NCBI GenBank assembly: GCA_000002445.1
Contig: CP000070.1
Location: 256,001-320,000, forward strand
Direction: 5' to 3'
Length of the DNA: 64,000 nt
Origin: Trypanosoma brucei
Lineage: Eukaryota
Shown here: one piece after another, positions 9,231 to 57,676 of the stretch
Layout: the number at the start of each line of letters is the position of its first letter
Numbering within the stretch: position 1 is the stretch's first letter
Made by a program: the position numbers and the translations under genes
The notes under the pieces: model-generated
The model's database searches: none
Told to the model about the DNA's origin: nothing
Seen by the model: the letters and a program-made list of their open reading frames with translations, nothing else

Positions 9231-11843
9231 ATGCACTGTTGTAAGGTTTTTTCGTTTCGCCTCACGGCAGGCCTTCTGCAGCGGCTGCCTATGCCGATGC
9301 CTCCGCCGCGACCAGGAGTAAGCGTCAACATGCAGCATGCGGTTGAAATAGAGGCGAAACGGCGGGTGGAGCTTGACGAGGCCACGCGCGCCCGGTACGT
9401 CGTTGTGAAGGAAGAAACTCGTGCTTCGGGGGACCGTGTCATTGGCATAGACCTCGGTACTACGAACAGCTGTATTTCATATATCGACAAGAAAACGAAC
9501 AGGCCAAAGATAATTCCATCTCCAACGGGGTCGTGGGTTTTTCCCACCGCAATTACGTTTGATAAAAGTCACAAGGTTCGCTTATATGGTGAAGAGGCCC
9601 GGGCCTGCGTACGGACGAGTGCGAGCGCGACGTTGTGCAGTGGAAAGCGCCTTATTGGCAGGGGTGTTGGTGAGTTGGGCCGCGTACAGTCCCAGCTCCA
9701 TAAGACAAATATGGTTACGCTTAACGAACGGGGAGAGGTGGCAGTAGAAATTATGGGTCGCACCTATACAGTAACCCATATCATAGCCATGTTCCTGCGC
9801 TATCTGAAAAAGGAGGCAGAAAAATTTCTCAAGGAACCGGTGAATGCCGTTGTAGTGAGTGTTCCTGCATTCTTCACCCCACAACAGAAGGTAGCGACGG
9901 AGGATGCTGCACTTGCCGCGGGTTTTGATGTCCTGGAGGTAATTGACGAGCCATCCGCCGCTTGTTTGGCTCATACTGTTTTGCAGCCTAGTAATGCCTC
10001 ATCAAGGGAACATCTATCGGGATCTAAGCGTATTGTACGTTCGCTGGTGTTTGATTTGGGCGGTGGCACACTGGACTGTGCTGTGATGGAAAATGATCGG
10101 CGACGGGGTACTTTTACACTTGTTGCGACACATGGTGACCCATTGCTTGGCGGCAATGATTGGGATGCTGTATTGTCTCAGCATTTTTCTGACCAATTTG
10201 AGCGTAAGTGGCGAGTACCTCTGGAGGACGCAGAAGGAAACGTGGGGCAAGGTGTAGCTACGTACCGCCAGCTCCTTCTTGAGGCTGAGAAGGCAAAGAT
10301 TCATTTTACGCACTCAACGGAGCCATATTATGGCTACAATCGTGCATTTCACTTTTCAGAGAAGCTTCGTGACATTGTTCCACTCGAGGCCACGCTCACG
10401 CTTGAGGAATACATTGAACTAACTCGGCCATTGAGGGTTCGCTGCGTGGAATGCCTCAACAAGCTTTTCGACCACACAAGCATACGTCCAGCAGACATTG
10501 ACAATGTACTACTTGTGGGGGCCATGACACGTGACCCCCCAATACGCCATCTTCTGACAGAGTACTTTGGTCGACATGTGGAATCTGAAGCCTCGTGTCC
10601 TGCCGACTACGCTGTAGCCATCGGTGCCGCCGTCCGCGGTGCCATGCTTCAGGGTGGATTTGATGACTTATTGTCGAACACACGATTTGTCACGGGGACC
10701 GCACAAGCCTTGAAGCAGGGTGGTTTCCTGCGTCGCTGCTGCAATCGCATTGGATCCTTAGTCAGTAGCAGCGTTAATCCAAATGCCATTGGCCAGCGCT
10801 GGCGCGGGCGCGCAAAAGGGCTCTCTGATGAAGAAATAGCTAACTATGCAAAGGAGCTTGTTGAGTTTGAGGCAGCGTGCGACCGCCGGCTGCTGCTTGA
10901 AAGAGCAGAGAACGACGCAAACTTCGTGATGCGGCGTGTAACAGCCGATTCGAGCAAGCGGCAAGGGATGCAGGAAAAACGTGTGCGGCAGCTAAGTGAA
11001 CAACTGAAGTTCTGGCAGTATATGGTGCACAACTTTCATGATCACGAAGACGAGTTACTACGAACGGTACGAGAATTGGAGCAAGCACTGGATGAATTGG
11101 AAGGGCTGGCAGAGGATAACACGTCGGGCCTCACAACCGCAGGGACAGTTGACTTCTCCTCAGTGACCCCTGTGAACCATTGCGAGGAAGAAGAGCGAGA
11201 CTGCAGCAGTGTTTCTGCAGCGTCAAGATCGGCACAGCTTAGGACGGCACATGGGGACGGAAAGCTGAAGGAGCGCACACAGGACGAGGAGGGGGAGAAA
11301 CCGAAAGGTCGTAAAATCATGAGGCGAGCTGTACCGCTGCCAAGGGCAAGTGCAGAAGCGCAGGAATTGGTGGAGGCGGGGCATCCCGCACTGCGAGGTG
11401 CCGATGTTTCCATGACAGAGTCCACGAGAAGTGCATTTTTCGAGGCACAGGTGGAGGAACGGGCATGGCGGGAGCCACCAACACCGCCTGGTGAGCATGG
11501 CTCATGGCAGGAGGTGAAGCGTGCGGTTGACGCTGGTGAGCCCGTTGGGAGCCCAATTGGTCTTCAGGAGTTACAGCGCCCAATGACACATGAAGAGATG
11601 CTACAGGTACTTAACAATATCGCACCCATTGATGATCCGGTGAGCGAGGAGCACGCCAGGAAGAGGGACCACTCCATTGATATGCGAACCATGACTATTG
11701 TTGAGGGTGCCGTAGATATGGTCGCGCTGCAGGAACTACTTGAGGAAGAAGCCAAACGGGCGGAGGAGCTTCAGCGTGCTCAGAAGAAGGGTGAGAAGCA
11801 ACTTGTAGCCGATTCATCAGCCAAACTGTTCGCGATGGACTAG
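9231..11843 (+). CDS. Divergent HSP70-family protein. The nucleotide-binding domain is intact, the substrate-binding beta-domain is shortened or divergent, and there is a long charged C-terminal tail.
   Basis: 870-aa ORF. VIGIDLGTTNSCISY matches the HSP70 signature IGIDLGTTNSCV. VFDLGGGTLDCAVM matches DLGGGTFD. LLVGAMTRDPPIRHLLTEYFG matches LVGGSTRIP.v. LSDEEIANYAKELVEFEA resembles the HSP70 lid segment LSKEEIErMvkEAEkf. There is an N-terminal extension before the NBD. Confidence 0.65.
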   Translation: MHCCKVFSFRLTAGLLQRLPMPMPPPRPGVSVNMQHAVEIEAKRRVELDEATRARYVVVKEETRASGDRVIGIDLGTTNSCISYIDKKTNRPKIIPSPTGSWVFPTAITFDKSHKVRLYGEEARACVRTSASATLCSGKRLIGRGVGELGRVQSQLHKTNMVTLNERGEVAVEIMGRTYTVTHIIAMFLRYLKKEAEKFLKEPVNAVVVSVPAFFTPQQKVATEDAALAAGFDVLEVIDEPSAACLAHTVLQPSNASSREHLSGSKRIVRSLVFDLGGGTLDCAVMENDRRRGTFTLVATHGDPLLGGNDWDAVLSQHFSDQFERKWRVPLEDAEGNVGQGVATYRQLLLEAEKAKIHFTHSTEPYYGYNRAFHFSEKLRDIVPLEATLTLEEYIELTRPLRVRCVECLNKLFDHTSIRPADIDNVLLVGAMTRDPPIRHLLTEYFGRHVESEASCPADYAVAIGAAVRGAMLQGGFDDLLSNTRFVTGTAQALKQGGFLRRCCNRIGSLVSSSVNPNAIGQRWRGRAKGLSDEEIANYAKELVEFEAACDRRLLLERAENDANFVMRRVTADSSKRQGMQEKRVRQLSEQLKFWQYMVHNFHDHEDELLRTVRELEQALDELEGLAEDNTSGLTTAGTVDFSSVTPVNHCEEEERDCSSVSAASRSAQLRTAHGDGKLKERTQDEEGEKPKGRKIMRRAVPLPRASAEAQELVEAGHPALRGADVSMTESTRSAFFEAQVEERAWREPPTPPGEHGSWQEVKRAVDAGEPVGSPIGLQELQRPMTHEEMLQVLNNIAPIDDPVSEEHARKRDHSIDMRTMTIVEGAVDMVALQELLEEEAKRAEELQRAQKKGEKQLVADSSAKLFAMD

Positions 11844-12227: not shown

Positions 12228-12677
12228 ATGTCCGGTGAGAAGACGCACACCCTCAAGCAGGTGCAGACCTTCGGCAAGAAGAAAACGGCCATTGCGGTCG
12301 CCACGGTGACGAAGGCCCCGCAGTGTAACATTCGCATCAATGGTGTCCCCATATCTCAGATCCTTCCTGAGACGCTCCGTGCGAAGATCATGGAAGCTGT
12401 CAAGGTAGTGGGCGCTCGGTACTTTTCTCGCCTGCGCGTTGATGTGAGGGTTCGTGGCTCCGGTCAGGTCGCTCAGGCATACGCCGTCCGCCAGGCCATC
12501 GCGAAGGGTATCATCGCATATTACCAAAAGTACCACAATGAGATTGAGAAGGCTGCACTGAAAGACAAGTACTTGGAGTATGACAAGTTCCTCCTCATTG
12601 CGGATCCTCGCCGCTGCGAACCCAAAAAATGGGGCCGTCACTCTGCCCGTACGCGCTTCACAAAGTCGTACCGTTAA
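12228..12677 (+). CDS. RPS16: 40S ribosomal protein S16 (uS9), copy 1
   Basis: 149 aa. MSGEKTHTLKQVQTFGKKKTAIAVATV...RVDVRVRGSGQVAQAYAVRQAIAKGIIAYYQKYH...GRHSARTRFTKSYR carries the uS9/S16 family signature, including the C-terminal ...ARxRxQKSYR. Confidence 0.9.
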   Translation: MSGEKTHTLKQVQTFGKKKTAIAVATVTKAPQCNIRINGVPISQILPETLRAKIMEAVKVVGARYFSRLRVDVRVRGSGQVAQAYAVRQAIAKGIIAYYQKYHNEIEKAALKDKYLEYDKFLLIADPRRCEPKKWGRHSARTRFTKSYR

Positions 12678-12900
12678 TCGCCTGCTGTATGACAGCGTAT
12701 TGATGAGGTGGCGGCACGATATACACCCGGGTTGCGGAGTTGCCTTTATCAGTTGCATGTTTTTAATTTCTCTTTTAACTGTTTGTTTCACTATTAATTT
12801 CTTATCTGCTTTCACACCCTTCTGTAATGGGGTGGTCGTCGCTGCCGTGTGTTGCCACTTTCCTACACTGTCATTGGAAGTTGCGGTGATTTGCTTTCAC

Positions 12901-12940
12901 CCCTATTTGTTTGTTTTATTTTCAACTTTTTTGTTGGTTG
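12901..12940 (+). promoter_or_regulatory. Polypyrimidine tract / SL acceptor region for the second S16 copy
   Basis: ccctatttgtttgttttattttcaacttttttgttggttg, then ctAGcacccaaATG. Confidence 0.4.
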
Positions 12941-12951
12941 CTAGCACCCAA

Positions 12952-13401
12952 ATGTCCGGTGAGAAGACGCACACCCTCAAGCAGGTGCAGACCTTCGGCA
13001 AGAAGAAAACGGCCATTGCGGTCGCCACGGTGACGAAGGCCCCGCAGTGTAACATTCGCATCAATGGTGTCCCCATATCTCAGATCCTTCCTGAGACGCT
13101 CCGTGCGAAGATCATGGAAGCTGTCAAGGTAGTGGGCGCTCGGTACTTTTCTCGCCTGCGCGTTGATGTGAGGGTTCGTGGCTCCGGTCAGGTCGCTCAG
13201 GCATACGCCGTCCGCCAGGCCATCGCGAAGGGTATCATCGCATATTACCAAAAGTACCACAATGAGATTGAGAAGGCTGCACTGAAAGACAAGTACTTGG
13301 AGTATGACAAGTTCCTCCTCATTGCGGATCCTCGCCGCTGCGAACCCAAAAAATGGGGCCGTCACTCTGCCCGTACGCGCTTCACGAAGTCGTACCGTTA
13401 A
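12952..13401 (+). CDS. RPS16: 40S ribosomal protein S16 (uS9), copy 2 (tandem duplicate)
   Basis: Identical 149-aa product beginning at the internal ATG at 12952. The CDS is nearly identical at the nucleotide level to copy 1 (one synonymous A/G difference seen near the 3' end). The 5' flank differs from copy 1, and the 3' flanks match for only ~12 nt after the stop. The upstream extension of the ORF-track entry 12580..13401 is read-through of the intergenic spacer. Confidence 0.85.
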   Translation: MSGEKTHTLKQVQTFGKKKTAIAVATVTKAPQCNIRINGVPISQILPETLRAKIMEAVKVVGARYFSRLRVDVRVRGSGQVAQAYAVRQAIAKGIIAYYQKYHNEIEKAALKDKYLEYDKFLLIADPRRCEPKKWGRHSARTRFTKSYR

Positions 13402-15519: not shown

Positions 15520-16159
15520 GGGCACTTAGGCTCAGTTGGAGAAATATCTATCGCCGAAGTGACCACTTGCTTATGTGCGCGCGTGTGTGACGGAAAGCAT
15601 TTGCATTTTTTCCCACGCGATATCTTGCAAGGACCGACGCGAAGGTTTTCATCAGCGGGAGAACAGCACAACGTGGTTAATAGGTTTGGTGCTTGCACCA
15701 GGGAAGCAGTTGATGCTGTACCACAATAGTGGTTTAAGATCGGACAGTTAGCAAACGGAACGCTTCTCATTGACAGGTGAAGGTGGTGACGTTCGAGAAG
15801 GGTAATGTGTGGTGGCGGTGAATCCAACAGATGAAATAATTTAACAATTACTATTTTTAAAAAAAAAATATTTGCGTCTTTGTCTTGCGGTACCCCACCT
15901 TAGGTTCCGTGGGAGCGAGTTTCGCAGATGAGTGAGGTAGCAGCACTTCACGTTGCGCCACCTGCCATGTGCCATAAAATTCTTCGTTTGGAGGAATTGG
16001 TATGCAGACGGAATGCTAAACGGTGTGGGTGCGTCTAATATTTCAATGTTTCTTTCTTAAATCATGTCCTACTCTGCCTCTTCATGTTTTCGGTTGTTCT
16101 AGCTGAACCGCAGAAGTTTTTTTTTTTAAAATCACTGCGTAAAACCTTTGTACACCACT

Positions 16160-16217
16160 ATTTTTCTAATTTATTTTCTTCTACTATTCCCTCTCCTCTC
16201 TTGTTTTTTTTTCTTTG
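16160..16217 (+). promoter_or_regulatory. Long polypyrimidine tract / SL acceptor region upstream of the EEP-nuclease gene
   Basis: ctatttttctaatttattttcttctactattccctctcctctcttgtttttttttctttgact, then gggtAGctgAGc. Confidence 0.4.
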
Positions 16218-16233
16218 ACTGGGTAGCTGAGCT

Positions 16234-18921
16234 TTGATGGCATTGGCTCAGTCATGTCGTCACTTTGCTGCGACGACGTACCGACAGTCCAAAATTACAG
16301 ATCGCTTCCAGCTGTTAATAACTAAAAAGGAAATTGAATGTGACTACGTTGCGGTGGACGCCACTGCCCTCGTCGCAACGGGGTTACGTCTCGCAAAGAA
16401 CGTTACAACTGAGCAGCGTCGCCATAAGGAAGTGGCGCGTCATGTAGTACAGTCAATACAACAGTTGTTGAAGAAGGTGCGTTGCAAGAAGTCTCTTCTT
16501 ATAGCAATGGACGGAGCTGAGAATCTGCTCAAGGCGGATCGTACACGGGGTAGCAGTTTAACCCGAAAGGTGGAAAGTCGTCTGATGAGACTACCGGGAA
16601 CTCCACTTATGCAGGCAGTGGAGGAACGTATCGTTCGTATGATGCCAGAGCGGCAGATATTACCCGGTGAAGTGGTGTTTGCCGGCACCTGTGTTCAAGG
16701 GTGTGTCGAGCAGAAGATGTCCGCTTGGGCACTTGATCTGGCGTCCCGAGACACCTTTAACGGCAGCAGCGACTCACTGAATTTGATTGGGGCCTCTGAG
16801 TTGTACCTTAATGTGTTGGCGCTGTCGCCCTTCTATAACGTATCGAGTGTGGTGCAAAATAACGCAGATTTGCGACATATACGACTGCAGGATATTTTGG
16901 AGTGGCTAGAGCTAGATAAGAAGGCGAAGGAAGGGGAGAGTGTCACAATAGCCAAGATGAGAACGGATATTTTATTCCTCTTCATTATCGCTAACGGCGC
17001 CTCGGCAACTGAGCTGAATCCCATTCCTGCTGTTGGTTTCCATGAAATTGTTGATAGGTACATGAAGGTTCTCGCAGAAAACGGTGCTACGCCCCCTTCT
17101 CAAAGCGCGACCGCGAGCGCCCCAACTGCTTCAGCCAACGTCCCGGCCGCCCCAGCATTTCTTTTTGAGGATAGTCCGGGCAACACACTCCAACTGAATC
17201 TTCGCATGCTCTGTCGCATCATGCAGTTAGTGGCGCGTAAGGAGGCGCCAGCCCGTGTGGATGGTCTGTCAGAAGCCTACTTGGAGCACGCCTTACAAAC
17301 GCATGCAATGTTGTGTACTGGACAGGCACCCCAATGCACCTACTTGCCAGCAGCGGGTACAGGACAACTAGGCTCGACGGCGCCTAGCGCCGTGCAGCTC
17401 GCAGGTCATCTTGCTGCATTATGCGCATCCACAGCACAACGCAACGCACGGTGTACTTCTCTGCAGCCCTCGCTGGTAACACCAGAAAAGGGATCGTGTG
17501 AGGAAGACAGTTCGGCAACAAAGCTGCCGCCGACACCCCCAACTAGCGCGGTCGCACCAGTTGAAGACAAGCCGCTGACAGCAGCTGAATACACCATTCT
17601 CTGTCAGTCGCTTCCCGCAGCTGTGGAAGGATTGATTCATCAGTACGTAGGCGTAGCGCCTAAGCCGGATGTTGGGAAGATGATTACAACGGCGACCACG
17701 GAGGAAGCCTACCGCCTTGTTCGGGAAGTGCTTTCTTATGCGAACCCTCTTCGACCGCATAAGTGCTTATGCCTTTCCCCATCTTATTGCTGGCTCCAGA
17801 ATGAAAAGACGCAACTGTGGCGCTTCGAATATGTCGATATTGGTGTCAAAAGTCATGAACTGGGGACACGTCGGCAACTCAATGCTATGAAGGGTGTAAC
17901 GCTTGAAGTGAACATGTCCCGTGATGGTCCTTCGCATTTTGATCCACTGAGTGGGACGTGGGAGCCAATTGCCAATTTCCCGTGCGGAGCGGAGTGCGAA
18001 TATGACAAACATACTGAAGAATGCACATCTTCTCCTTCAGCTCCACAAACTGCAAAAGAGGTTGAAGGAGGACCAGTTAAGGCATCTTTAAAATTGCTGA
18101 CATGGAATGTCATGTTTGATCGTTACAGCGGCAAACCAACTCCTTTAGGTATGCCTGGTATAGATTGGTGCTCCCCCAAGAGGTATCCCGTCATTGCCAA
18201 GATCATAGAGGAGGAGGATGCGGATGTTGTTGGCATGCAAGAGGTGGAGCCTGTATTTTGGGAGTTCCTTTCCAAGCGGCCACTTATACGCCAAAGGTAC
18301 TACTTTTCGTGCGGTCATATGAGTCCAGCTATTGCCCCGTGGGGGGTGCTGATGTTGATACACCGTCGGCGTCTTCCAGTACAGAGCATCAACTATCTTA
18401 ACGTCCCTGCGTGGACTAATCATGTTTCTCTCATGCCGGTTGTGGGTCTGAAGATGGTGCACGGTACTGTACACATAGCTGCCGCACACTTACTCGCGCC
18501 ATACACGAAGTCCCACGAGAACGCTCGTACTTCCCAGGATACCGCGTTACGCCATCACATGACGAAGACGTTGGGTGGCGGGGATGTGGTAACTATGGGA
18601 GATTTCAACGACTGGCCTACAAATGAATTTATTATGCCACATGAATCACAGTACGTGGACTGTTGGCCCGTTTTGCACCCCAACAACCCTGGAAAGACTA
18701 TGGATGAAACAAACACCTTTTGTAAACTGAAAGTGGAGGAAATGTTTTTTGGCCGTTCCGACAAGGTGTTTCTGCGAAGCAGGCGGCTTGTGCCAGTCGA
18801 AGCTCATCTCGTCGGAACACGGAGTGTAAACGATGAGAACAACAACGCCGACGCACCCGCATATTTGTTCCCATCCGATCACTACGGCGTAAGTATAACG
18901 TTTTCATTGAAGTTACCGTAA
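16234..18921 (+). CDS. KREX1: Endonuclease/exonuclease/phosphatase (EEP)-domain nuclease with an N-terminal XRN-like 5'-3' exonuclease-type motif region. The size and architecture match the editosome U-specific exoribonuclease KREX1 (TbMP100).
   Basis: 895 aa (~100 kDa). The C-terminal EEP hallmarks are LKLLTWNVMFD, DADVVGMQEV, VTMGDFNDWP and PSDHYGVSITF. The N-terminus reads LLIAMDGAENLLKADRTRG...LPGTPLM...PGEVVF...ALDLASRD, resembling the XRN motifs AiDGVAPRAKMNQQRsRR / ITPGTpFM / PGEGEHKI / GlDADLI. The N-terminus is Arg-rich and presequence-like. The KREX1 identity is from memory of the published TbMP100 architecture. Confidence 0.55.
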   Translation: MMALAQSCRHFAATTYRQSKITDRFQLLITKKEIECDYVAVDATALVATGLRLAKNVTTEQRRHKEVARHVVQSIQQLLKKVRCKKSLLIAMDGAENLLKADRTRGSSLTRKVESRLMRLPGTPLMQAVEERIVRMMPERQILPGEVVFAGTCVQGCVEQKMSAWALDLASRDTFNGSSDSLNLIGASELYLNVLALSPFYNVSSVVQNNADLRHIRLQDILEWLELDKKAKEGESVTIAKMRTDILFLFIIANGASATELNPIPAVGFHEIVDRYMKVLAENGATPPSQSATASAPTASANVPAAPAFLFEDSPGNTLQLNLRMLCRIMQLVARKEAPARVDGLSEAYLEHALQTHAMLCTGQAPQCTYLPAAGTGQLGSTAPSAVQLAGHLAALCASTAQRNARCTSLQPSLVTPEKGSCEEDSSATKLPPTPPTSAVAPVEDKPLTAAEYTILCQSLPAAVEGLIHQYVGVAPKPDVGKMITTATTEEAYRLVREVLSYANPLRPHKCLCLSPSYCWLQNEKTQLWRFEYVDIGVKSHELGTRRQLNAMKGVTLEVNMSRDGPSHFDPLSGTWEPIANFPCGAECEYDKHTEECTSSPSAPQTAKEVEGGPVKASLKLLTWNVMFDRYSGKPTPLGMPGIDWCSPKRYPVIAKIIEEEDADVVGMQEVEPVFWEFLSKRPLIRQRYYFSCGHMSPAIAPWGVLMLIHRRRLPVQSINYLNVPAWTNHVSLMPVVGLKMVHGTVHIAAAHLLAPYTKSHENARTSQDTALRHHMTKTLGGGDVVTMGDFNDWPTNEFIMPHESQYVDCWPVLHPNNPGKTMDETNTFCKLKVEEMFFGRSDKVFLRSRRLVPVEAHLVGTRSVNDENNNADAPAYLFPSDHYGVSITFSLKLP

Positions 18922-19341: not shown

Positions 19342-20490
19342 GTGTTGGGGCAACTGTGCCTTTCTTTATTTTCTGGCGCAGCAGTCCCATACCTCCCCTG
19401 TTCACGAATGATGCAACGTTGCGGCACTTCACTGAGTCGCCTGTGCTTCCGCCGCTTATTGCGTACACCACTCCTTGTTTATTCTATACCACCAATTCGT
19501 GATGTGCCATCGGGGATAGCACACTGCCCATTGAGCTGCAGCATGCGTATGGTCACTTCTTCGAATGATGACGAGTTTGTGTTTGATCCTACTCTCAGTA
19601 TCCAGAAGGACGCCGCGATACACACGGCCAAGAAAAGCTTCGAAACTATTGTACTCGAGTATGTTCCTGCGCACGCTCCCGAGGAGGCGAGGCAGAAGGT
19701 GAAGTCGTACCTGACCCAGCACCCAATCGACATACTTATAACGCAACCTAAGGTGCAAATCACTCACTTGGAAGACGCAGAGTCGGGGGCAGAGACAAAA
19801 GTTTCATTGAGTCCGTGTGACCTTCCCGAGGCGCTGCAGCAGGCAAGGGAGCGTGGGATGAATCTCGTTCAAATGGGGGCGCGTGGAGATGTGGCGTACT
19901 GCAGGATCCGCCGTGAGTCCGCCCGCATTCTGAGTCTCATACACACCGAACTTGAGGCCCTTCGCGAGCAGGAGGAGAAACAACAGGGGAAAGGACGCGG
20001 TGGGGTGCAGGCAGCGGCTAAAATGGGTGAGCTCATTGACCACACATTCCGTGACGCAGTGGATGCCCATTTTGTTGGGTGGCGAAGCAAGAAAATAGTG
20101 GAAGATATCAGGAGGCGGCACCCGGTGAAGTTGACTATCAAGGAGTTTCAATCACCCGAGTGTGCTATCGGTAAGCTTAGGGAGATGTGCCAGGCGATGC
20201 AGCATTACGCACAGGAGAAGGTCATATACCACCACTTCACCAGCATCGTGGCAAATGATCGCGAAGCAAGTATTACTTTTGCCCCTGCGCTGCCCATGGC
20301 CAAGAGTGATTCGTGGAAACATATAAAGTACCCGGGCGAGAAGGAATGGACTAATGCTTTGAGGCGAATGGAAGATGCGTGTCGTAAAAGTGGGCGTTAT
20401 GGCACGTATGCAAAAAGCAACAAACTCAAGTTGCGCTCCTTGGGTCAGACATCATATCGTGTAGACAAATACGGGAGGAAGATGGATTAA
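19342..20490 (+). CDS. Hypothetical protein. The N-terminus resembles a mitochondrial targeting sequence.
   Basis: 382-aa ORF. A second Met gives MMQRCGTSLSRLCFRRLLRTPLL, which is Arg-rich and amphipathic. No recognisable domain. Confidence 0.4.
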   Translation: MLGQLCLSLFSGAAVPYLPCSRMMQRCGTSLSRLCFRRLLRTPLLVYSIPPIRDVPSGIAHCPLSCSMRMVTSSNDDEFVFDPTLSIQKDAAIHTAKKSFETIVLEYVPAHAPEEARQKVKSYLTQHPIDILITQPKVQITHLEDAESGAETKVSLSPCDLPEALQQARERGMNLVQMGARGDVAYCRIRRESARILSLIHTELEALREQEEKQQGKGRGGVQAAAKMGELIDHTFRDAVDAHFVGWRSKKIVEDIRRRHPVKLTIKEFQSPECAIGKLREMCQAMQHYAQEKVIYHHFTSIVANDREASITFAPALPMAKSDSWKHIKYPGEKEWTNALRRMEDACRKSGRYGTYAKSNKLKLRSLGQTSYRVDKYGRKMD

Positions 20491-24500: not shown

Positions 24501-26373
24501 CAACAACAACGACGTCAACTCTCTTCAACCTTTATTTAAGTTCCTGTGGGCCGAGCTTAGTCCATCGTATTCTGTGTCTCCACTAAGCGCGTTTTATTGC
24601 TCCTCTTACGACAAACAGCGGCACATGATCTCCGCCCTCAACGCATTCAGAAGTTCGAGGAAGATGGCACGATATGCGATTAACAGCTTTTACGTCGGCC
24701 GTCACTCAAAGTCGTCCCCAAGTGACACACGACATGTCCTGACCCAACCGGCAATAAGGAAGCCACTGTGCATGTGTAGGCTCTGCAATCCGTTTACTAA
24801 GCAAACAGTTTATCCGAAATCCCCTGTGCTCACTTTGAAGGATGCATTGTATCGTCGTGTAACGTCCGCTGCAAGCGAGGAAGAAACCGAGGGATTCATT
24901 TCCGACCGTGGTGGTTTGTTCCGGTCGTGGCGGTTTTCTGTGCCCTTGACACATCTGATGGTCCGTCATGAGAAAACGGAGGAGCTGCAGAGGGCTCTGC
25001 AACTTTCTCCTGTCACCGAAGCGCATGTGGAGGTTCCACTACTGGACGGCGAGCGCTTTCTCTATGATTACGCGGGAGACGTTGTAGCTCGGGGCGTTGC
25101 ACTTTTGCAACGCCAGGGGTTGGTGGGAAACTGTTCAGCGAAGCTGCTGTCATGGGTCTGCTTACTTGGCCGTATGGCGTTGCATCCTTCAACAGCCTTC
25201 GCTGACGTCCGAAACAGTGATCAAGCACTGTATGTGCAGTCCCATCAGAAAAATGAGCAAGTCGCTTCCAACTTCCTGAGTTCAGTTGTTTCCGTAACAC
25301 CTAACGACGCGTTGGCGTACGCTAGGAAGCTTATCGCGAACCGGCTTAATACTACGGGAACCAGGAAAGGTCGGGGTGAAACCAATGTGTTGGTTCCCCC
25401 GGAGACGACGGTGGAGACACTGCGCAAACTGACGCTTGATCCCCCTGAAGTTCCAGAGTGCGCCATATGTCTCGATACTATGCTCCACCCAACCTTACTA
25501 AGCTGCTTCCATCTATTTTGTAAGGAGTGTCTGTTTGCGACGATACAGGTGGCGAGACCAACACTTTCAAACGAAACTACCGCCCGCTGCCCTCATTGTA
25601 GAAACCCCAAAAGCATGAGGGAAAAAATGATGGTAATTCAGGTGGAAAATACGCAAGTAAGCACGCTGGGTGCACTCCAAGATGAGGGCATGGCGCCCCC
25701 CAACGGTGAAAACGTTTCTCACGAAGAACTGAAGCGACGGGTTGATGCTGTTGGGCGCGGTAGTCGAATTCCAAGGCTGATTCAACTGCTTGAAGACATA
25801 TGGGATGAGGCCCCAGACGACAACGTGTTGGTGTTCTCAAAGGTGCCAGCGATCCTGCAAATGGGAGAGGCAGCCCTAAAGGAGGCTGGCTACCAAAACG
25901 TACACGTGATCGATAATCACGTAACTTTGGTTCAGCGGAAGAAAATTTTCGCCCAGCTCCACGCCAATGCAGCGACCACCGCCTCAGCAACAGGGTCGGC
26001 CTCAGGAAGCACGCCTTCGGGTAACAACCGAGGACACGTGCTGTTTCTCTCTTCCCGGGTTGCATGCTCAGGGCTCAATTTGGTCTTTGCGAACCGCTTG
26101 ATTTTTATGGAACCCAACCTCAACCCAGCCCAGCACCAGCAGGCAGTTGGTCGCATTGACCGTTGCGGACAGTTGAAGAGAACATATGTGTATGTAATGT
26201 ATGCACCTCGCACTATTGAGGAGAGGATCATGAATCGGACCTCAGCTCTGCTGCAGGAGGCAAGTCAAGGTACTTTTCCTGACGTAGCAACAGGTCGAGG
26301 GGCTCCGGCAGGAAATACCTCTTCAATGGGACAAAGCGAGTTAATTACTTTACTTCAAGCGCAACAAGCGTGA
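21535..26373 (+). CDS. SNF2-family DNA-dependent ATPase with a C3HC4 RING finger inserted between the helicase lobes (RAD5/RAD16/HLTF-like architecture)
   Basis: 1612 aa. Motif I is FLCDEMGLGKTLVVL. Motif II is ERIILDESQKCSK. Motif III is RWVVSGTPINN. The RING is CAICLDTMLHPTLLSCFHLFCKECL...CPHCR. The helicase-C motifs are VLFLSSRVACSGLNLVFANRLIFMEPNLNPAQHQQAVGRIDRCGQ. There is an N-terminal basic NLS-like stretch (MPPRKRSKRPRD). Confidence 0.85.
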   Translation: MPPRKRSKRPRDQEQSAEAETATTGIESLVGREGDPITHDFIDECNGDESDSDNQILAASFKKRTKRRAEKMVGNGNDTVLTDGDDDECIAEQEDKVTKALQARLRCGMQRFATSATNQGGLVKPSGPPSSVAAAAQRSTTTKRDNLTNSRRQEIFVEHVKHFMRYTVIADKARKLVSLEERPKEDPDVGNDRVELLRIHVSLPCVWRYILHEWERVEEASKKSSSLAASRDASVSRLVSLFMKCLNSLDGIHALLFIACAACRALDLTGGVTSVLLHLLLETGRVEEDRLLKSDSGELVYKAIEEIDKEMHSRFGGSDCCYFQTHSYLLLLIWYTQRDVSDNGGPLKMSHQVVLSQAFVKATSPYQTARTRRGSKAAASVAPSEESGKRKPRGRRCAGSSEDGAALSGFDRHATLVTEVQEHETRWAEDSSKFLFSLYALQNASGSASYGMKKLALREVMGAVFLFHRVLSESGVNDFLLESKESRIRELHEWSLSKGFVTPPLTHGGESSNNGTTVNSFASTDVGEDGLNVMSMAGRTYRECTDVERSFPRVANARAMLQHVTQIAAANYRGNTRAVGEGFPHEYIRARLHPHQVESLAYMLERETRGLAQYVELRGFFEATSGLPSEVADRSAGRGSREFSLFYSSMSSEWFIVRSDSLSARFARRALHCGFLCDEMGLGKTLVVLSLCATAKKRAIELEETEVPTVTTLGTVKGSNVGAVNKAFAESDAGTAGAGEDEPIYLWRHIRVRKTGAPWSDMLEVLYGSLPQPVYLPTPKPLPKTTLVVVPLSLLIQWVSEIDRFYPLARYILFHGPSRQRYTYEDFCSADFVITTYETVGAHLRVETDAAFRLLTMTLPYMEHKDASLAQWDTFCRGCNERRARAASASQGVNDCDGSADVFDSILSLFESARRQVVLEAEGAPPGPTLDFVSQWDKTFREFLRSDVLYLTDFVFERIILDESQKCSKTSRLQYLQARRRWVVSGTPINNNDVNSLQPLFKFLWAELSPSYSVSPLSAFYCSSYDKQRHMISALNAFRSSRKMARYAINSFYVGRHSKSSPSDTRHVLTQPAIRKPLCMCRLCNPFTKQTVYPKSPVLTLKDALYRRVTSAASEEETEGFISDRGGLFRSWRFSVPLTHLMVRHEKTEELQRALQLSPVTEAHVEVPLLDGERFLYDYAGDVVARGVALLQRQGLVGNCSAKLLSWVCLLGRMALHPSTAFADVRNSDQALYVQSHQKNEQVASNFLSSVVSVTPNDALAYARKLIANRLNTTGTRKGRGETNVLVPPETTVETLRKLTLDPPEVPECAICLDTMLHPTLLSCFHLFCKECLFATIQVARPTLSNETTARCPHCRNPKSMREKMMVIQVENTQVSTLGALQDEGMAPPNGENVSHEELKRRVDAVGRGSRIPRLIQLLEDIWDEAPDDNVLVFSKVPAILQMGEAALKEAGYQNVHVIDNHVTLVQRKKIFAQLHANAATTASATGSASGSTPSGNNRGHVLFLSSRVACSGLNLVFANRLIFMEPNLNPAQHQQAVGRIDRCGQLKRTYVYVMYAPRTIEERIMNRTSALLQEASQGTFPDVATGRGAPAGNTSSMGQSELITLLQAQQA

Positions 26374-26849
26374 TGCTGGCATTTTTTTTGCTGTTTCTGA
26401 ATTGACCTCGGGATCGCCGACGATCACACGACCCTCCACCCTCCACCCTCCAAGCCCAAACCCATTTTTTGAGTCGTTTCTTTTTTTTTTTTTTAAATAA
26501 CTATTTTATTTCCTCTCCCTTATATTTGTGACGCCCAGGATATTTTGTTTCTGTTTGGAGACGATTGTTGTGAGTTCTAGAACTGCACCCTGAAAAAGGA
26601 TTAAAAAAAAAGGGGGCGATGGGATGTTTGCCATTTTACGTTTTTTTGTTTTTCTTTTTATGTCGTGCATTCTTTTAACGTTTGTTGCCGTCTCCATTTT
26701 GTCTTTGTTTATTATTATTATTTTTTTTTAGGGTTGATTCAGGGGTGGTGGGTGAGGAGGCCCTTGGCGGGGAATTTATCTCTTTCTCTTTTCTTCTGTT
26801 GACTTTGTTTTTCCTTTTATCCACAGGGTAGCGATGAGGCAAGGATGTC

Positions 26850-26854
<5 letters not shown>

Positions 26855-26882
<28 letters not shown>
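26855..26882. repeat. (AT)n microsatellite
   Basis: Direct read: atatatatatatatatatatatatatat. Confidence 0.9.
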
Positions 26883-26890
<8 letters not shown>

Positions 26891-29260
26891 GAAGGAATGT
26901 ACAAACATGAAACAAATAAGCGGATATTTAAATATATAAGTATATATGTACTTGTGTAATGTGAGTGAGTAAATAAATAAGTGAATGAGTCTGCGTGTGT
27001 TTCGAATATTGACGAAGTGAATCTATGAACTAAGTTATGTATTCTTTTCCCCCCTTTCCAGTATCCCTTGTATTTTCGGGCGCTGATGTTCCTTTTGTTC
27101 TGTTCTGTTGTTGTTCTTTTCTAGAGACTTCGTTCCAAAGTACGAAAATGCCTCGTTGGTCTCTTTTCTTGTTCTTATTCTGTCTGTGAGATGCATTGCT
27201 TCATCTTAAATTTTCTGGCTTCACCTTTCGTTTTTTTTTATTGTTTTCGCCTTACTACCGCTTCCGTGACCATCGAGAGGCGCACGTTGCTTTTGTTATG
27301 GTGCCTACGTATGCGTTGCCCATATTCCTTCACATTACATTACATTACATCACTGTTGTGAGCTCAATAACGTACTCAAGGAGACGGCACCACAACGAAC
27401 GAGAGCGAAATGAATAAATGGAGGACAGGTGGCGAAAAAGAAAAAGTAAGAAAAAAGAGGAAAATAATAAAAGAGAAAGAAATAGAGAAGTAGAGAAAAC
27501 AATTACAATAATAAAGCAAAGCATATATCATGACGGTAACTACAATGTCTCGTGCTTTCCCCCACACATCAACGGCCCCCAAAATCTCGTCTTCCAATCA
27601 GTTCTTTCTTTCCTTTTTTGTTTTGTTGTTGTCGGCATTGGCTTTGCTTTATCAACCTATATCTATATCTATCCATATTTATATATTTTTATGATTTGAA
27701 GTGACGCAACCTGCCGGTTCGCTTTATGTTAACTGAGTGGGTGGGAACAAAAGAAATTGTAAATAGCTAATTTTGTTTTCCTTTAATTGGGACAATTTTA
27801 GCGAGTACATGAGATCTTTTCCCCTTCCGTTTTTTTGCCTCTATTGTTTATGACACAAACACAAACACACACACATATGCTCAAAAAGGGGGGAAAAAGA
27901 GAGGAATACTTGTGTATGCACAAAGAAGAAAGAAAAAAAAAGAAGAATGAAATATAGAAGGGAGCTATGGGAAGAGCAATTTTCATTGTGGTTATTTCTA
28001 CTACTATTATGAGGAACGGTAACATTGTTATTATTTAGCTTTAGTGTGCGACTATGTTACCCCATTTTGTGTTTGTTTGTTTAATTGTTATGTTCGTTCT
28101 TATGGATATGTGTAACAAACACATCATCTTTATCTTCTATGCGCCGGGCAGGAATGATCTTGTGAATGGCGTCTTTTGCTTTTTTTTGTATGTGATGGAA
28201 AGAGAGAGTTCAAGAAGGGGGAAGGGGAGTAAAAAAAAATAAATAAAAGAAAACATCATGCTTGCATGCATAAGCATTAATGTATGTCTTTGTGCGTAGT
28301 ACATCGTTGCTCCAGAACACAGAAATGCAATATCTCACCAAAGTAAGGAGAGAGGAGACATAATGCGTGATACTATTTTTTTCTTTTGAAAAAGATGAAA
28401 AAGAGATAAAGCAACAGGGGATGAAAGGTTTAAAATTATGCTTTGCTAATCGGTTACTATTATCACTACGATTATCATTACAATTACTGTTGTCATTTTT
28501 TTTTTTTAAGTTTTAATAAAAAGAAAAGCAACAATACCATCATCGTTGCGTCGTAGAGGATACACACTTCTTTGCTACATCCCCTGTTATTTTTCCATTT
28601 TAAAACAAAATTTGTGGTGCTGACTAATGGAAGTTAAGTGGAGCGCTCATGCACCAACGAAGAAGGACGAGGAGAGGAGGGAAATGCGGAAAGGAAAAGG
28701 AAAAAAGAAAGATCGAAACCTTCAAAGAGAGTCTAAAGGGGTGGCGTGCCGCTTACATAAAAGTAACTCCATACAAGACGTACACAAATATACATATACC
28801 TGTTCATCCTTTGATTTTCCCTTTCTTCCTCTTCTTTTTCATTTCGGCCTTGAAGCGACATTAATACTTAAAGATCCCTTGTTTTACATCTCACAGTTTA
28901 AGATTTGTGAAGAGTGTGCATGTTTTGCTCGGCAATAAATGGGAAAATAAAGACGTGAAATATATGTATGTATGTATATATATGTATTTCGTCCTCTCTC
29001 ACACCCTCGTGTGTTCCACACGCTCAAGGGCGAACTTTTGTTGATTCTTTTTATTATTTTTCTCTTGAATGCTCTTTTACTTCCTCATAAGTTTTTATTA
29101 GGAAGTTTAATTGTTTATTACCCTTTAAAAAAAAATACGTATTTTAATTTGTTTTTGCTGTTTTTTGCGAAAAAAAAATTCACAAAAATTTCGTAAAATA
29201 AGTTGTCTTTTTCCTCCTTTTCTTTTCTTTTTTCTTTTAAATTCGTTCTTCCCGCTGTTT

Positions 29261-29282
29261 ATATATATATATATATATATAT
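29261..29282. repeat. (AT)n microsatellite
   Basis: Direct read. Confidence 0.9.
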
Positions 29283-29384
29283 GTGATGTGCGTGTATTGA
29301 GAAAAGTGGGTTAAGTAGGGAGGTGGAAAAGGGTTCGTTAATCAAATTAGGTTAAACCTGAGAAAATAAAAAGAACGAAAATTT

Positions 29385-32011: not shown

Positions 32012-33067
32012 ATGGGCGACGACGGTTATTCGTCATACGTCCTGCTTCAGGAACAGATCCTGACAGTGAAGCGTAGCTTCAGCGAAGCTCTCGAAAAGGA
32101 ATTAAATTTGGTTGAGGTGCGAGCACCGATTCTGTTTCGGGTGGGTGACGGAACACAGGACAATCTCTCCGGCTTCGAGAAGGCAGTTCAGGTCCCTGTC
32201 AAGGCCATTCCCAATGCATCATTTGAGGTGGTACATTCACTTGCCAAGTGGAAGCGACGGACGCTCGCTAACTACAAGTTTGCTCCAGGCCATGGGCTCT
32301 ACACCCACATGACGGCACTGCGTGTGGATGATGTTCTGGACAATATCCACTCTGTTGTGGTGGACCAGTGGGACTGGGAAATGGTGATGAAGGATGACCA
32401 GCGCAATTTGGCCTTCTTAAAGGAGGTTGTGTGTAAGGTGTATGCCGCAATCCGAAAAACGGAGTTGGCTGTCTGTGAAAAGTACAAGCAGAAGCCTATT
32501 CTCCCGGAGACCATACAGTTTGTGCATGCAGAGCACCTACTTCTGGCGTACCCAAACCTAACAGCTAAGGAGCGTGAGCGGGAGATTGCACGAGAATACG
32601 GCGCTGTTTTCCTCATTGGCATAGGCGCTGTCCTTAGCAGTGGGGATCGGCATGATGCACGGGCGCCGGATTATGATGATTGGACCTCTCCAGTTGAGGC
32701 ATCCCAAGTCGTTTTCCCCCGAACCTCTAAACCCATACCAACGATGAACTCCCTTTCGTCACTGAAGGGGCTGAATGGTGACATTCTGCTTTACAATCCT
32801 ACGCTGGATGATTCACTTGAGGTAAGCAGCATGGGCATCCGCGTGAATGCCGAGGCTTTGCGTCACCAAATTTCTCTGACGGGAGACGATTCTCTTCTCA
32901 AAAGTGAGTGGCACCAACAGCTGCTGAATGGTGAGTTTCCCCAGACTGTTGGCGGTGGTATTGGCCAGAGTCGCATGGTGATGTTCATGCTAAGAAAGAA
33001 GCATATCGGGGAGGTGCAATGCAGCGTCTGGCCTGAGGAGATTCGGAAAAAGCACAATTTGTTGTAA
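32012..33067 (+). CDS. ASNA: Asparagine synthetase A (ammonia-dependent aspartate-ammonia ligase, bacterial AsnA type)
   Basis: 351 aa. Near-collinear identity to bacterial AsnA across the whole length: [110 protein letters not shown] and [26 protein letters not shown]. Confidence 0.92.
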
Positions 33068-44619: not shown

Positions 44620-44621
44620 CG

Positions 44622-56318: not shown

Positions 56319-56319
56319 C

Positions 56320-56371
<52 letters not shown>

Positions 56372-57660: not shown

Positions 57661-57676
57661 ATATATATATATATAT
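57661..57676. repeat. (AT)n microsatellite
   Basis: Direct read. Confidence 0.85.

What the first reader, a model, noticed from the sequence alone, without database searches (positions are those of the whole stretch)
16234..18921. EEP nuclease with an N-terminal XRN-like motif block whose acidic catalytic positions appear substituted (KREX1-like editosome exonuclease)
The C-terminal 300 aa carry clean EEP catalytic motifs. The N-terminal ~170 aa align motif-by-motif with the XRN 5'-3' exonuclease core, but several conserved acidic positions appear replaced: AVDATA where XRN has DxN, and AMDGAEN where XRN has AIDGVAPRAK. This suggests a structurally retained but catalytically dead 5'-3' exo-like module fused to an active 3'-5' U-specific exonuclease domain. 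The N-terminus is presequence-like, which fits a mitochondrial editosome protein.
Basis: partly seen in the sequence, partly recalled or inferred. Interest (0 to 1): 0.5.

Follow-up and report, generated by a model that had tools for sequence, protein, structure and literature searches.

The report
Trypanosome editing exonuclease KREX1, already known
This gene is the already described Trypanosoma brucei RNA-editing exonuclease KREX1 (TbMP100): an intact U-trimming EEP nuclease domain sits behind a large XRN-like module whose active site has lost three of its seven acidic residues, so the gene is ordinary and only that detail adds a little.

Summary
The ORF is real (ATG at 16237, stop ends at 18921, 894 aa). 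It is identical, residue for residue, to T. brucei KREX1/TbMP100 (Q57WU3, XP_845731.1).

The C-terminal EEP domain (aa 621-882) passes Pfam's threshold, and all its catalytic residues are invariant in 30 orthologues.

- About aa 22-560, not about 170 aa, is an XRN-core-like fold.

AVDATA and AMDGAEN both keep the catalytic Asp (D41 = D35, D92 = D86). Its conclusion still holds at other positions:
- The equivalents of E176, D206 and D291 are non-acidic in 54 of 54 KREX-family sequences.
- Three of the four 5'-phosphate-pocket residues, the stacking His and the N-terminal MG(V/I)P helix are also gone.
- Four carboxylates (D41, D92, E158, E/D188) remain strongly conserved.

The two-domain architecture has been published since 2003, and the structural XRN_N assignment since 2024. 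XRN-type 5'-3' exonuclease activity is unlikely. A one-metal or RNA-end-binding role is not excluded.

Novelty: already known. Interest: low.

The parts
16237..18921 (+). KREX1 (TbMP100, Tb927.7.1070) coding sequence, 894 aa plus stop.
   Evidence: ORF; ATG; exact identity to Q57WU3/XP_845731.1; gene id from the table in PMC12936278.
16120..16228 (+). Polypyrimidine tracts followed by AG just upstream of the ATG. This looks like a trans-splice acceptor region and would give a very short 5' UTR.
   Evidence: Read directly from the sequence. The function is inferred from general trypanosomatid gene structure and was not tested.
16237..16299 (+). aa 1-21, a presequence-like N-terminus (4 basic, 0 acidic, 5 Ser/Thr residues). 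It takes the place of the conserved MG(V/I)P alpha1 helix of XRNs.
   Evidence: Composition; pLDDT below 50 for aa 1-10; the XRN-like proteins start with MG(V/I)xG. Cleavage and import were not tested.
16300..17091 (+). aa 22-285, the XRN CR1-like PIN/FEN-type domain with a degenerate active site.
16357..16359 (+). D41, equivalent to Xrn1 D35. Retained: 50 of 50 aligned KREX-family sequences.
16510..16512 (+). D92, equivalent to Xrn1 D86. Retained in 50 of 52. K99 (16531-16533) corresponds to K93 and is retained. R100 and R101 correspond to S106 and S107, and Q97 to T103, so those three are lost.
16702..16710 (+). C156-V157-E158, equivalent to Xrn1 E176-G-E178. The first Glu is lost (0 of 54 sequences acidic). 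The second is retained (47 of 51 acidic).
16792..16800 (+). A186-S187-E188, equivalent to the Xrn1 D206-A-D208 region. At most one carboxylate (E188, acidic in 46 of 52) replaces the Asp pair. Position 186 is never acidic.
   Evidence: hhalign register; the alternative HMMER register; counts.
16999..17001 (+). A255, equivalent to Xrn1 D291/D292 in the GND(F/Y) motif. Lost: 0 of 54 acidic. E259 (17011-17013), four residues downstream, is acidic in 45 of 54.
17092..17151 (+). aa 286-305, a variable, low-complexity, low-confidence insert.
   Evidence: Alignment; pLDDT below 50 for aa 285-304.
17152..17916 (+). aa 306-560, the XRN CR2-like part. It includes YLEHALQTHAMLCTG (aa 345-362) and PLTAAEYTIL (aa 446-455). 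There is a disordered loop at aa 410-441.
   Evidence: hhalign local alignment over aa 22-503, 99.9%, E 5e-32; AF2 model of aa 1-610 with pLDDT 82 and pTM 0.81; Foldseek against the human XRN1 core, E 5.8e-14, TMt 0.62.
17917..18096 (+). aa 561-620, the linker between the two modules. Most of it is low confidence.
   Evidence: pLDDT below 50 for aa 581-610.
18097..18882 (+). aa 621-882, the EEP (endonuclease/exonuclease/phosphatase) domain. Catalytic residues: N624, E669, H751, D789, N791, D842, D881, H882.
   Evidence: Pfam PF03372 above its cut-off; TDP2 alignment; invariance in 30 orthologues; codons checked. The literature reports that EEP point mutations abolish exoUase activity (PMC2665232).

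Best explanation
The locus encodes KREX1 (TbMP100), the U-specific 3'-5' exoribonuclease of the deletion-type RNA editing catalytic complex (RECC1) of the Trypanosoma brucei mitochondrion.

Catalysis is done by the C-terminal EEP domain (aa 621-882). After the KREN1/KREPB8 endonuclease has cut the pre-mRNA at a deletion site, this domain trims unpaired 3' uridines from the 5' cleavage fragment. A ligase then reseals the strand.

The rest of the protein (about aa 22-560) descends from an XRN-type 5'-3' exoribonuclease core (CR1 plus a reduced CR2). It has lost:
- three of the seven metal-binding carboxylates (the equivalents of E176, D206 and D291, which amounts to metal site B);
- three of the four residues of the 5'-monophosphate pocket;
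- the base-stacking His;
- the N-terminal alpha1 helix.

This module therefore most likely no longer acts as a processive 5'-3' exonuclease. It more likely serves as the scaffold that docks KREX1 to KREN1 and RECC1, and possibly as an RNA-binding surface.

Shown here: the identity, both folds, the state of each catalytic position, and their conservation.
Taken from the literature: the exoUase activity, its dependence on the EEP domain, and complex membership.
Inferred: the loss of XRN activity and the scaffold or RNA-binding role.
For: - Identity: exact match to Q57WU3/XP_845731.1. Orthologues are named MP100.
- EEP domain: Pfam match above its cut-off over the full model. Catalytic residues are invariant and align with TDP2 motifs. 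The literature reports that the exoUase activity is abolished by point mutations in the EEP domain (PMC2665232). [quoted passage not shown]
- Degeneracy: positions equivalent to E176, D206 and D291 are acidic in 0 of 54 KREX-family sequences. H41 corresponds to A/G, Q97 to T, and R100/R101 to S/S. No MG(V/I)P N-terminus is present.
- Sensitivity of XRN catalysis: the single mutant D208A is used as catalytically dead Xrn1 (PMC10557749). The seven acids coordinate two Mg2+ ions (PMC9512700). Two metal ions are required for exonucleolytic cleavage in FEN-like nucleases (PMC5499597).
- No activity without EEP: Leishmania KREX2 lacks the EEP domain, keeps the XRN-like part, and is reported to have no exonuclease activity (PMC3305318). 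An EEP-less MP99 cluster is seen.
- Scaffold role: KREX1 knockdown prevents KREN1 association with 20S editosomes. Numerous KREN1-KREX1 crosslinks are reported (PMC6800513).
Against: - Four carboxylates (D41, D92, E158, E/D188) plus K99, R104 and K160 sit at former active-site positions. They are among the 28 most conserved of 372 columns across KREX1, KREX2 and more distant relatives. That is more than a pure protein-docking scaffold would obviously need.
- Active canonical PIN nucleases and E. coli Xni work with 4-5 site-A acids.
- The register around E188 is ambiguous: HMMER and hhalign differ.
- I could not inspect model coordinates, so I do not know whether E188 or E259 points into the old metal site.
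- No direct assay of the isolated N-terminal module was found in the papers I could read. Rogers 2007, Ernst 2009, Kang 2005 and Worthey 2003 are not held.
Confidence: 0.75

Rival explanations
1. The XRN-like module keeps a reduced, site-A-only metal centre (D41, D92, E158, E/D188, with K99 and K160) and still acts on RNA. It could be a one-metal structure-specific endonuclease or phosphatase. It could instead be a Mg2+-dependent clamp for an RNA end, for instance the 5'-phosphate of the 3' cleavage fragment, holding the nick while the EEP domain trims the other fragment.
For: - The four carboxylates and three basic residues are among the most conserved columns of the whole KREX family, including EEP-less KREX2.
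- Canonical PIN nucleases (SMG6, DIS3 PIN, Nob1, VapC) have 4 acidic residues. Xni has site A only and is an active flap endonuclease. One metal ion is sufficient for endonucleolytic cleavage in FEN-like enzymes (PMC5499597).
- The editosome has a 3' nucleotidyl phosphatase activity that depends on MP99/MP100 (PMC2665232). The authors attribute it to the EEP motif.
Against: - The E176 equivalent, which belongs to site A in FEN-like enzymes, is lost in 54 of 54 sequences.
- The 5'-phosphate pocket keeps only the K93 equivalent.
- Leishmania KREX2, which has this module but no EEP domain, is reported to have no exonuclease activity.
- No such activity has been reported in any paper I could read.
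Confidence: 0.17
2. The XRN-like module is a fully active XRN-type 5'-3' exoribonuclease, as anticipated from the structure-based PF03159 annotation. KREX1 would then be a bidirectional nuclease.
For: Strong fold and profile similarity to XRN1 and XRN2. The prediction is stated in PMC10830352. Three catalytic acids and K93 are kept.
Against: - Three of seven acids are absent family-wide, as are three of four pocket residues, the stacking His and the alpha1 helix.
- Single substitutions of these acids are used as catalytically dead Xrn1: D208A and the E178Q crystal form 3pie.
- Two metal ions are needed for exonucleolytic cleavage.
- EEP point mutations alone abolish the in vitro nuclease activity.
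Confidence: 0.06
3. The XRN resemblance is a chance or compositional match, and the N-terminal region is an unrelated kinetoplastid-specific domain.
For: The single-sequence Pfam score is below the gathering threshold (21.0 against 22.9 bits). The PDB profile hits to Xrn1 and Rat1 have E values of 1.3-1.9.
Confidence: 0.01

Closest known systems
KREX1 / TbMP100 / REX1 (Tb927.7.1070), the U-specific exoribonuclease of the KREN1 deletion editosome (RECC1)
   Same: It is this protein: 894 of 894 residues are identical to Q57WU3/XP_845731.1. The published description, a 5'-3' exonuclease motif plus a C-terminal EEP domain, matches.
   Different: Nothing differs in sequence. Two points are not stated in the papers I could read. 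First, the XRN-like part spans about 540 aa (CR1 plus CR2). Second, three of the seven XRN carboxylates and most of the 5'-phosphate pocket are missing in every family member.
[quoted passage not shown]
   Same: Same two-module architecture and the same pattern of retained and lost XRN acids. Examples are P0039, P0040, and P0044 whose cluster is named MP99.
   Different: About 28-29% identity. It is dispensable, and in Leishmaniinae it lacks the EEP domain altogether (P0044, P0047 and P0051). Some KREX2-like sequences have also lost the E158 equivalent (A in P0039, P0047 and P0051).
XRN1 / XRN2 (Rat1) 5'-3' exoribonucleases (Pfam XRN_N PF03159 plus XRN_M)
   Different: The equivalents of E176, D206 and D291 are lost, as are H41, Q97, R100 and R101, and there is no MG(V/I)P alpha1 helix. 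CR2 is much reduced. The module is fused to an EEP domain and targeted to the mitochondrion. The single-sequence Pfam score is below the gathering threshold.
Short XRN-like proteins of kinetoplastids and other protists, for example Bodo saltans CUG88410.1, 'Xrn1 N-terminal domain-containing protein'
   Same: These are the XRN_N members that the KREX profile reaches first. They share local motifs with KREX1. RVDFIFLFLL corresponds to RTDILFLFII, ATPYHNISIV to LSPFYNVSSV, and PLAPLEAYVALMP to PLTAAEYTILCQS.
   Different: They keep all seven acids (DMN, DGPAP, GEGE, DxD, G(N/G)D(Y/H)) and the MG(V/I)xG N-terminus. They have no EEP domain.
EEP-superfamily nucleases and phosphatases (TDP2, APE1/ExoIII, CCR4-type deadenylases, inositol 5-phosphatases)
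   Same: The EEP fold signature and the complete catalytic motif set. Homology models on APE1 and ExoIII have been published.
   Different: A distinct REX subfamily with a small-residue pocket (T825, G839, S841) proposed to accommodate an extrahelical U (PMC1525001). The best PDB sequence match is only E 0.035 (TDP2).
Editosome pseudo-enzymes: the KREPB4-B8 degenerate RNase III domains and the RESC1/2 triphosphatase-like proteins
   Same: The same theme of a catalytic fold kept for assembly or RNA binding after loss of catalytic residues.
   Different: A different fold. In KREX1 the degenerate module is fused in cis to an active enzyme, and its inactivity is inferred here rather than demonstrated.

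Membership tests
KREX1 (TbMP100) orthologue group | Sequence identity to the reference T. brucei KREX1 | tested here: met
   The exact 894-aa sequence is in the collection as Q57WU3_TRYB2 / XP_845731.1 'RNA-editing complex protein MP100' and as 'KREX1 [T. equiperdum]'.
KREX1 (TbMP100) orthologue group | Architecture: XRN-like N-terminal module plus C-terminal EEP domain | tested here: met
   Pfam hits. The architecture is conserved in 30 orthologues from Trypanosoma, Phytomonas, Leishmania and Leptomonas.
KREX1 (TbMP100) orthologue group | Exclusive presence in KREN1/KREPB8 deletion editosomes, and U-specific 3'-5' exonuclease activity | not testable with these tools
   Literature only: PMC3305318, PMC2665232, PMC12936278.
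EEP superfamily (Pfam PF03372) | Profile match above the curated threshold over the whole domain | tested here: met
   32 bits against a 24.5 cut-off; model positions 1-225 of 225; aa 621-882.
EEP superfamily (Pfam PF03372) | Catalytic motif residues: N (WN), E (QE), H, D and N (GDFN), D, and D-H (SDH) | tested here: met
   N624, E669, H751, D789, N791, D842, D881 and H882 are all invariant in 30 orthologues. QE, GDxN and SDH align with TDP2. Codons verified.
XRN 5'-3' exoribonucleases (XRN_N PF03159 / XRN core) | Pfam XRN_N match above the gathering score | tested here: not met
   21.0 bits against 22.9; E 2.4e-4; only aa 31-95 matched. Eight of 30 orthologues carry a precomputed PF03159 hit.
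XRN 5'-3' exoribonucleases (XRN_N PF03159 / XRN core) | Homology and fold of the XRN core (CR1 plus CR2) | tested here: met
XRN 5'-3' exoribonucleases (XRN_N PF03159 / XRN core) | Seven conserved acidic residues coordinating two Mg2+ ions (D35, D86, E176, E178, D206, D208, D291/292) | tested here: not met
   D41, D92 and E158 are retained. E188 may replace D208. The equivalents of E176, D206 and D291 are never acidic in 54 KREX-family sequences. The residue list comes from PMC5499597.
XRN 5'-3' exoribonucleases (XRN_N PF03159 / XRN core) | Basic 5'-monophosphate pocket (K93, Q97, R100, R101) and stacking His41 | tested here: not met
   K99 corresponds to K93 and is kept. Q97 corresponds to T103, R100/R101 to S106/S107, and H41 to A47 (A or G in the family). 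The pocket's residue numbers are from my own knowledge of Jinek et al. 2011. The papers read here describe the pocket only in general terms and name only Lys93.
XRN 5'-3' exoribonucleases (XRN_N PF03159 / XRN core) | Conserved N-terminal alpha1 helix (MG(V/I)P...) at the active site | tested here: not met
   KREX1 starts MALAQSCRHF, and orthologue N-termini are variable and basic. The XRN-like proteins start MG(V/I)xG. The role of the alpha1 helix is described in PMC9512700.
XRN 5'-3' exoribonucleases (XRN_N PF03159 / XRN core) | 5'-3' exoribonuclease activity on 5'-monophosphorylated RNA | not testable with these tools
   No assay of the isolated module was found. 'Unknown' in PMC1525001; 'anticipated' in PMC10830352.
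Site-A-only PIN-like nucleases (canonical PIN, Xni type) | Four to five acidic residues forming one metal site after S1, S2, before H4, and after S4 | tested here: inconclusive
   Four conserved carboxylates sit at matching sequence positions, but the E176 equivalent of site A is missing. The definition is from PMC5499597.

The most novel reading that the evidence does not exclude
The ex-XRN module of KREX1 and KREX2 is not a dead scaffold. It would be a re-purposed one-metal site (D41, D92, E158, E/D188, K99, R104, K160), conserved since before the KREX1/KREX2 split. This site would bind or process an RNA end inside the editosome. For example, it could clamp the 5'-phosphate end of the 3' cleavage fragment so that the EEP domain and the ligase act on a held nick. 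It could also supply a second, endonucleolytic or phosphatase-type activity.
Probability: 0.15. Interest if true: 0.55.

Novelty: already known. Interest (0 to 1): 0.2.

Why it matters
KREX1 is the main U-removing enzyme of trypanosome mitochondrial RNA editing. It is essential for normal growth of the parasite, and no experimental structure of it or of the whole catalytic complex exists yet.

The gene and its two-domain layout are textbook knowledge for the field, so the finding itself adds nothing.

The one useful by-product is a residue-level argument about the large XRN-derived module:
- It spans about 540 aa rather than being a short 'motif'.
- It lacks metal site B and the 5'-phosphate pocket in every family member.
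- It keeps four carboxylates under strong constraint.

This argues against a recently published expectation of 5'-3' exonuclease activity. It also names the handful of point mutants that would settle whether the module is a scaffold or an RNA-end-binding site.

Tried and rejected
1. A single-sequence phmmer search of PDB found only weak TDP2 matches for the EEP domain and nothing for the N-terminus. A KREX1 N-terminal profile against PDB gave Xrn1 and Rat1 only at E 1.3-1.9, with a spurious gasdermin hit on top. That result was useful for residue mapping but is not evidence by itself.

2. I tried to read the primary papers: Worthey 2003, Ernst 2009 and Kang 2005. Rogers 2007 I did not look up; I saw it only as a citation. 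None of the three is held. Statements about them are therefore second-hand, from PMC1525001, PMC2665232 and PMC3305318.

3. Literature searches for any statement that the KREX XRN-like domain is inactive or a pseudo-enzyme found none.

4. Both keep the Asp.

5. The idea that the XRN-like part is limited to about 170-200 aa was rejected.

6. I could not superpose the model on XRN1 to see whether E188 or E259 reaches the metal site, because model coordinates are not exposed to the script environment.

7. Rfam and tRNA scans of the window found only one tRNA-Gly, unrelated to this gene. The tandem-repeat scan found nothing relevant.
Full report
**What is at the coordinates**

The + strand carries one uninterrupted ORF at 16234..18921. 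The first codon in the bacterial-code listing is TTG. The next codon, at 16237, is ATG, and it lies a few bases after long pyrimidine tracts and an AG. Translation from 16237 gives 894 aa.

An exact-sequence look-up finds this very protein in public databases. It appears as Q57WU3_TRYB2 / XP_845731.1 'RNA-editing complex protein MP100 [Trypanosoma brucei brucei TREU927]' and as 'KREX1 [Trypanosoma equiperdum]'. So the object is KREX1 (TbMP100, REX1, Tb927.7.1070; nomenclature table in PMC12936278), not something KREX1-like.

All 16 long ORFs of the window lie on the + strand. That fits a trypanosomatid polycistronic unit.

**The EEP domain**

- Pfam Exo_endo_phos matches aa 621-882 over the complete model (positions 1-225 of 225). 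The E value is 1.4e-7 and the score 32 bits, against a curated cut-off of 24.5.
- In an alignment with 29 orthologues from Trypanosoma, Phytomonas, Leptomonas, Leishmania and related genera, eight residues are invariant: N624, E669, H751, D789, N791, D842, D881 and H882.
- These are the residues of the WN, QE, H, GDFN, D and SDH motifs. The QE, GDxN and SDH motifs line up with those of TDP2, the best solved relative by sequence.
- The literature reports that the single-strand, U-specific 3'-5' exoUase activity of TbMP100 and TbMP99 is abolished by point mutations in the EEP domain (PMC2665232). Editosomes from KREX2-null cells remove Us only if they contain KREX1 (PMC3305318).

**The XRN resemblance is real and bigger than described**

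- On its own, the sequence scores 21.0 bits on Pfam XRN_N (aa 31-95, E 2.4e-4), just under the gathering score of 22.9.
- A profile of aa 1-372 from 20 orthologues (A2) was searched against 1.84 billion representative proteins. It returned 73 hits. The first 30 or so are KREX1, KREX2 or related proteins.
- From E 6e-9 downward the hits carry the canonical XRN motifs. Five of them were scanned against Pfam XRN_N and score 70-151 bits.
- Profile-profile comparison with an alignment of 26 such proteins gives 99.96% probability and E 3.6e-38.
- With the whole pre-EEP region as query, the local alignment covers aa 22-503 at 99.9%, E 5e-32. It includes two CR2 signatures. YLEHALQTHAMLCTG matches Y-L-x-G-L-x-W-x-L-x-x-Y-x-x-G, and PLTAAEYTIL matches P-L-x-P-L-E-x-x-x-A-L-M-P.
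- The AlphaFold2 model of aa 1-372 has pLDDT 80.6 and pTM 0.80. The model of aa 1-610 has pLDDT 82.3 and pTM 0.81, which indicates one compact unit up to about aa 560.
- Against solved structures, the top 27 Foldseek hits of both models are all XRN1, XRN2 or Rat1. The best is human XRN1, at E 3.7e-11 for the short model and E 5.8e-14 (TM 0.62 on the target) for the long one. Exo1, T5 exonuclease, XPG and FEN1 follow.

The resemblance is homology. It extends over about 540 residues (CR1 plus a reduced CR2), not about 170.

**The seven acidic residues**

The XRN set is D35, D86, E176, E178, D206, D208 and D291/292 (PMC5499597). These residues coordinate two Mg2+ ions (PMC9512700).

| XRN residue | KREX1 position | State across the KREX family |
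|---|---|---|
| D35 | D41 (in VAVDATA) | D in 50 of 50 aligned |
| D86 | D92 (in AMDGAEN) | D in 50 of 52 |
| E176 | C156 | P/C/S/G/A; acidic in 0 of 54 |
| E178 | E158 | acidic in 47 of 51 |
| D206 | gap or A186 (hhalign register) | position 186 acidic in 0 of 54 |
| D208 | E188 (hhalign register) | acidic in 46 of 52 |
| D291/292 | A255 | C/A/L/S/H; acidic in 0 of 54 |

- The family sample is 54 sequences of KREX1, KREX2 and deeper relatives.
Both keep the Asp. What differs there is the neighbourhood: N37 becomes T, and APRAK becomes ENLLK.
- The D206-x-D208 pair corresponds to G185-A186-S187-E188-L189. The ungapped HMMER alignment to Rat1 places the pair on G185 and S187 instead. Under either register, at most one carboxylate (E188) replaces the two.
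- A nearby E/D259 is acidic in 45 of 54 sequences. Its position relative to the old metal site could not be checked.
- The net result is three acids strictly kept, one conservatively or ambiguously kept, and three lost in every member.
- The losses therefore pre-date the KREX1/KREX2 split.

**Other XRN hallmarks**

- Of the 5'-monophosphate pocket, only the K93 equivalent (K99) survives. Q97 corresponds to T103, and R100/R101 to S106/S107.
- The stacking His41 corresponds to A47 (A or G in the family).
- The pocket's residue numbers come from my own knowledge of Jinek et al. 2011. The papers read here describe the pocket only in general terms and name only Lys93.
- The XRN-like proteins all begin MG(V/I)xG, the alpha1 helix whose dynamics are coupled to catalysis in Xrn2 (PMC9512700). 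KREX1 and its orthologues instead begin with a variable, basic, acid-free stretch. That is compatible with a mitochondrial presequence, though I did not test this.

**What this means mechanistically**

- XRN-type processive 5'-3' exonuclease chemistry is unlikely. Single substitutions of the acids are used as catalytically dead Xrn1: D208A (PMC10557749) and the E178Q crystal form.
- FEN-like enzymes need two metal ions for exonucleolytic cleavage (PMC5499597).
- The literature adds a natural experiment. Leishmania KREX2 lacks the EEP domain, keeps the XRN-like part, and is reported to have no exonuclease activity (PMC3305318). EEP-less KREX2 sequences, one of them in a cluster named MP99, appear in my family table and still hold the same four carboxylates.
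- A structural role is supported by published data. KREX1 knockdown prevents normal association of KREN1 with 20S editosomes. Numerous KREN1-KREX1 crosslinks are reported (PMC6800513).
- My best explanation (confidence 0.75) is that the EEP domain does the chemistry, and the ex-XRN core is a non-exonucleolytic docking or RNA-binding module.

**Why 'dead' is not proven**

- Only 28 of 372 columns are at least 85% conserved across the whole family. They include D41, D92, G93, R104, G155, E158, K160, G185, D244 and G254, which are the remnants of the XRN motifs.
- Four carboxylates at these positions are as many as active canonical PIN nucleases possess. E. coli Xni works with site A alone, and one metal ion suffices for endonucleolytic cleavage in FEN-like enzymes.
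- A reduced one-metal site that binds or processes an RNA end therefore remains possible (rival, about 0.17). Full XRN activity, as anticipated in PMC10830352, seems improbable (about 0.06). A chance resemblance is excluded.

**Comparison with what is known**

- The combination '5'-3' exonuclease motif plus EEP domain' in TbMP100 and TbMP99 is credited to comparative analyses of 2003 (cited in PMC1525001, and PMC2665232).
- In 2006 it was stated that it is unknown whether REX1 and REX2 have 5'-3' exonuclease activity.
- In 2024 a structure-based annotation assigned PF03159 to both proteins. It named 5'-3' exonuclease activity as a prediction to test.
- As of 2022-2026 no experimental KREX structure exists, and the structure of the catalytic complex is incomplete.
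- The finding is thus an already known gene with an already known architecture. The residue-level degeneracy and the true extent of the XRN-like core are at most a small refinement.

**Verdict**

- Observation: partly confirmed. The ORF, the EEP motifs and the XRN similarity are right. The two cited motif examples are wrong, and the extent of the XRN-like region was underestimated.
- Interpretation: partly supported.
- Novelty: already known.
- Interest: 0.2.
- The most novel reading not excluded is a conserved one-metal RNA-end-binding or catalytic site in the ex-XRN module. I give it about 0.15 probability, with moderate interest if true.

Noticed in passing
window 44549-44620 (+): A single tRNA-Gly(GCC) gene lies in a roughly 4-kb stretch without long ORFs, between the ORFs ending at 41862 and starting at 46007. 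This is inside what otherwise looks like one + strand polycistronic unit. ARAGORN found it and Rfam confirmed it at 59 bits. No other Rfam family was found in the window.
   Followed up: partly
window 26001-30000 and 56001-58000: Two low-GC stretches (0.40-0.41, against about 0.50 elsewhere). They coincide with long ORF-free gaps at 26373-29385 and 55609-57817. They are presumably long UTR or intergenic regions, but I did not examine them.
   Followed up: no
window 32012-33067 (+): This ORF has a strong match to AsnA, the bacterial-type aspartate-ammonia ligase (PF03590, E 3.6e-92). That is a prokaryote-like enzyme in a eukaryotic gene array.
   Followed up: no
window 46007-49567, 50951-52273, 53054-55609 (+): Two large RCC1-repeat proteins (1186 and 851 aa) flank an ApaG/DUF525-domain protein. 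Whether the two RCC1 genes are paralogues of each other was not checked.
   Followed up: no
window 3946-6027, 19342-20490, 29385-31604, 37759-41862, 57817-61113 (+): Five long ORFs (382-1367 aa) have no Pfam match at E <= 0.001. They include the gene immediately downstream of KREX1 (19342-20490).
   Followed up: no
window 9231-11843 and 12580-13401 (+): An 870-aa HSP70-like protein matches the Pfam model only over its N-terminal ATPase part (model positions 1-379 of 599). A Ribosomal_S9 protein has a roughly 140-aa N-terminal extension. Both look like divergent, possibly organellar, versions.
   Followed up: no
proteins P0058, P0066, P0070, P0072, P0074, P0076: Several of the short XRN-like proteins that the KREX profile reaches have a hydrophobic, signal- or transit-peptide-like extension in front of the conserved G(I/V)xG start, and they keep all seven acidic residues. 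One example is MPRANRNHTLLMLLLVLLLVGQCLF in P0058. Their organisms and localisation are unknown.
   Followed up: no
proteins P0060 (cluster with Bodo saltans CUG88410.1), P0078, P0090, P0093: A kinetoplastid-type XRN-like clade has G-G-D-H-Y in place of G-N-D-F. It shares several local motifs with KREX1 (RVDFIFLFLL, ATPYHNISIV, PLAPLEAYVALMP). This hints that the KREX module arose from this clade. No tree was built.
   Followed up: partly
protein P0102 (Q86MV7 / AAO63565.1): A 902-aa version of T. brucei MP100 sits in the same 90% cluster as the 894-aa protein encoded here. The 8-residue difference was not located.
   Followed up: no
window 16120-16228 (+): Long T and pyrimidine runs end in AG about 10 nt before the KREX1 ATG. 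If this AG is the trans-splice acceptor, the 5' UTR is unusually short. No transcript data are available to check.
   Followed up: no
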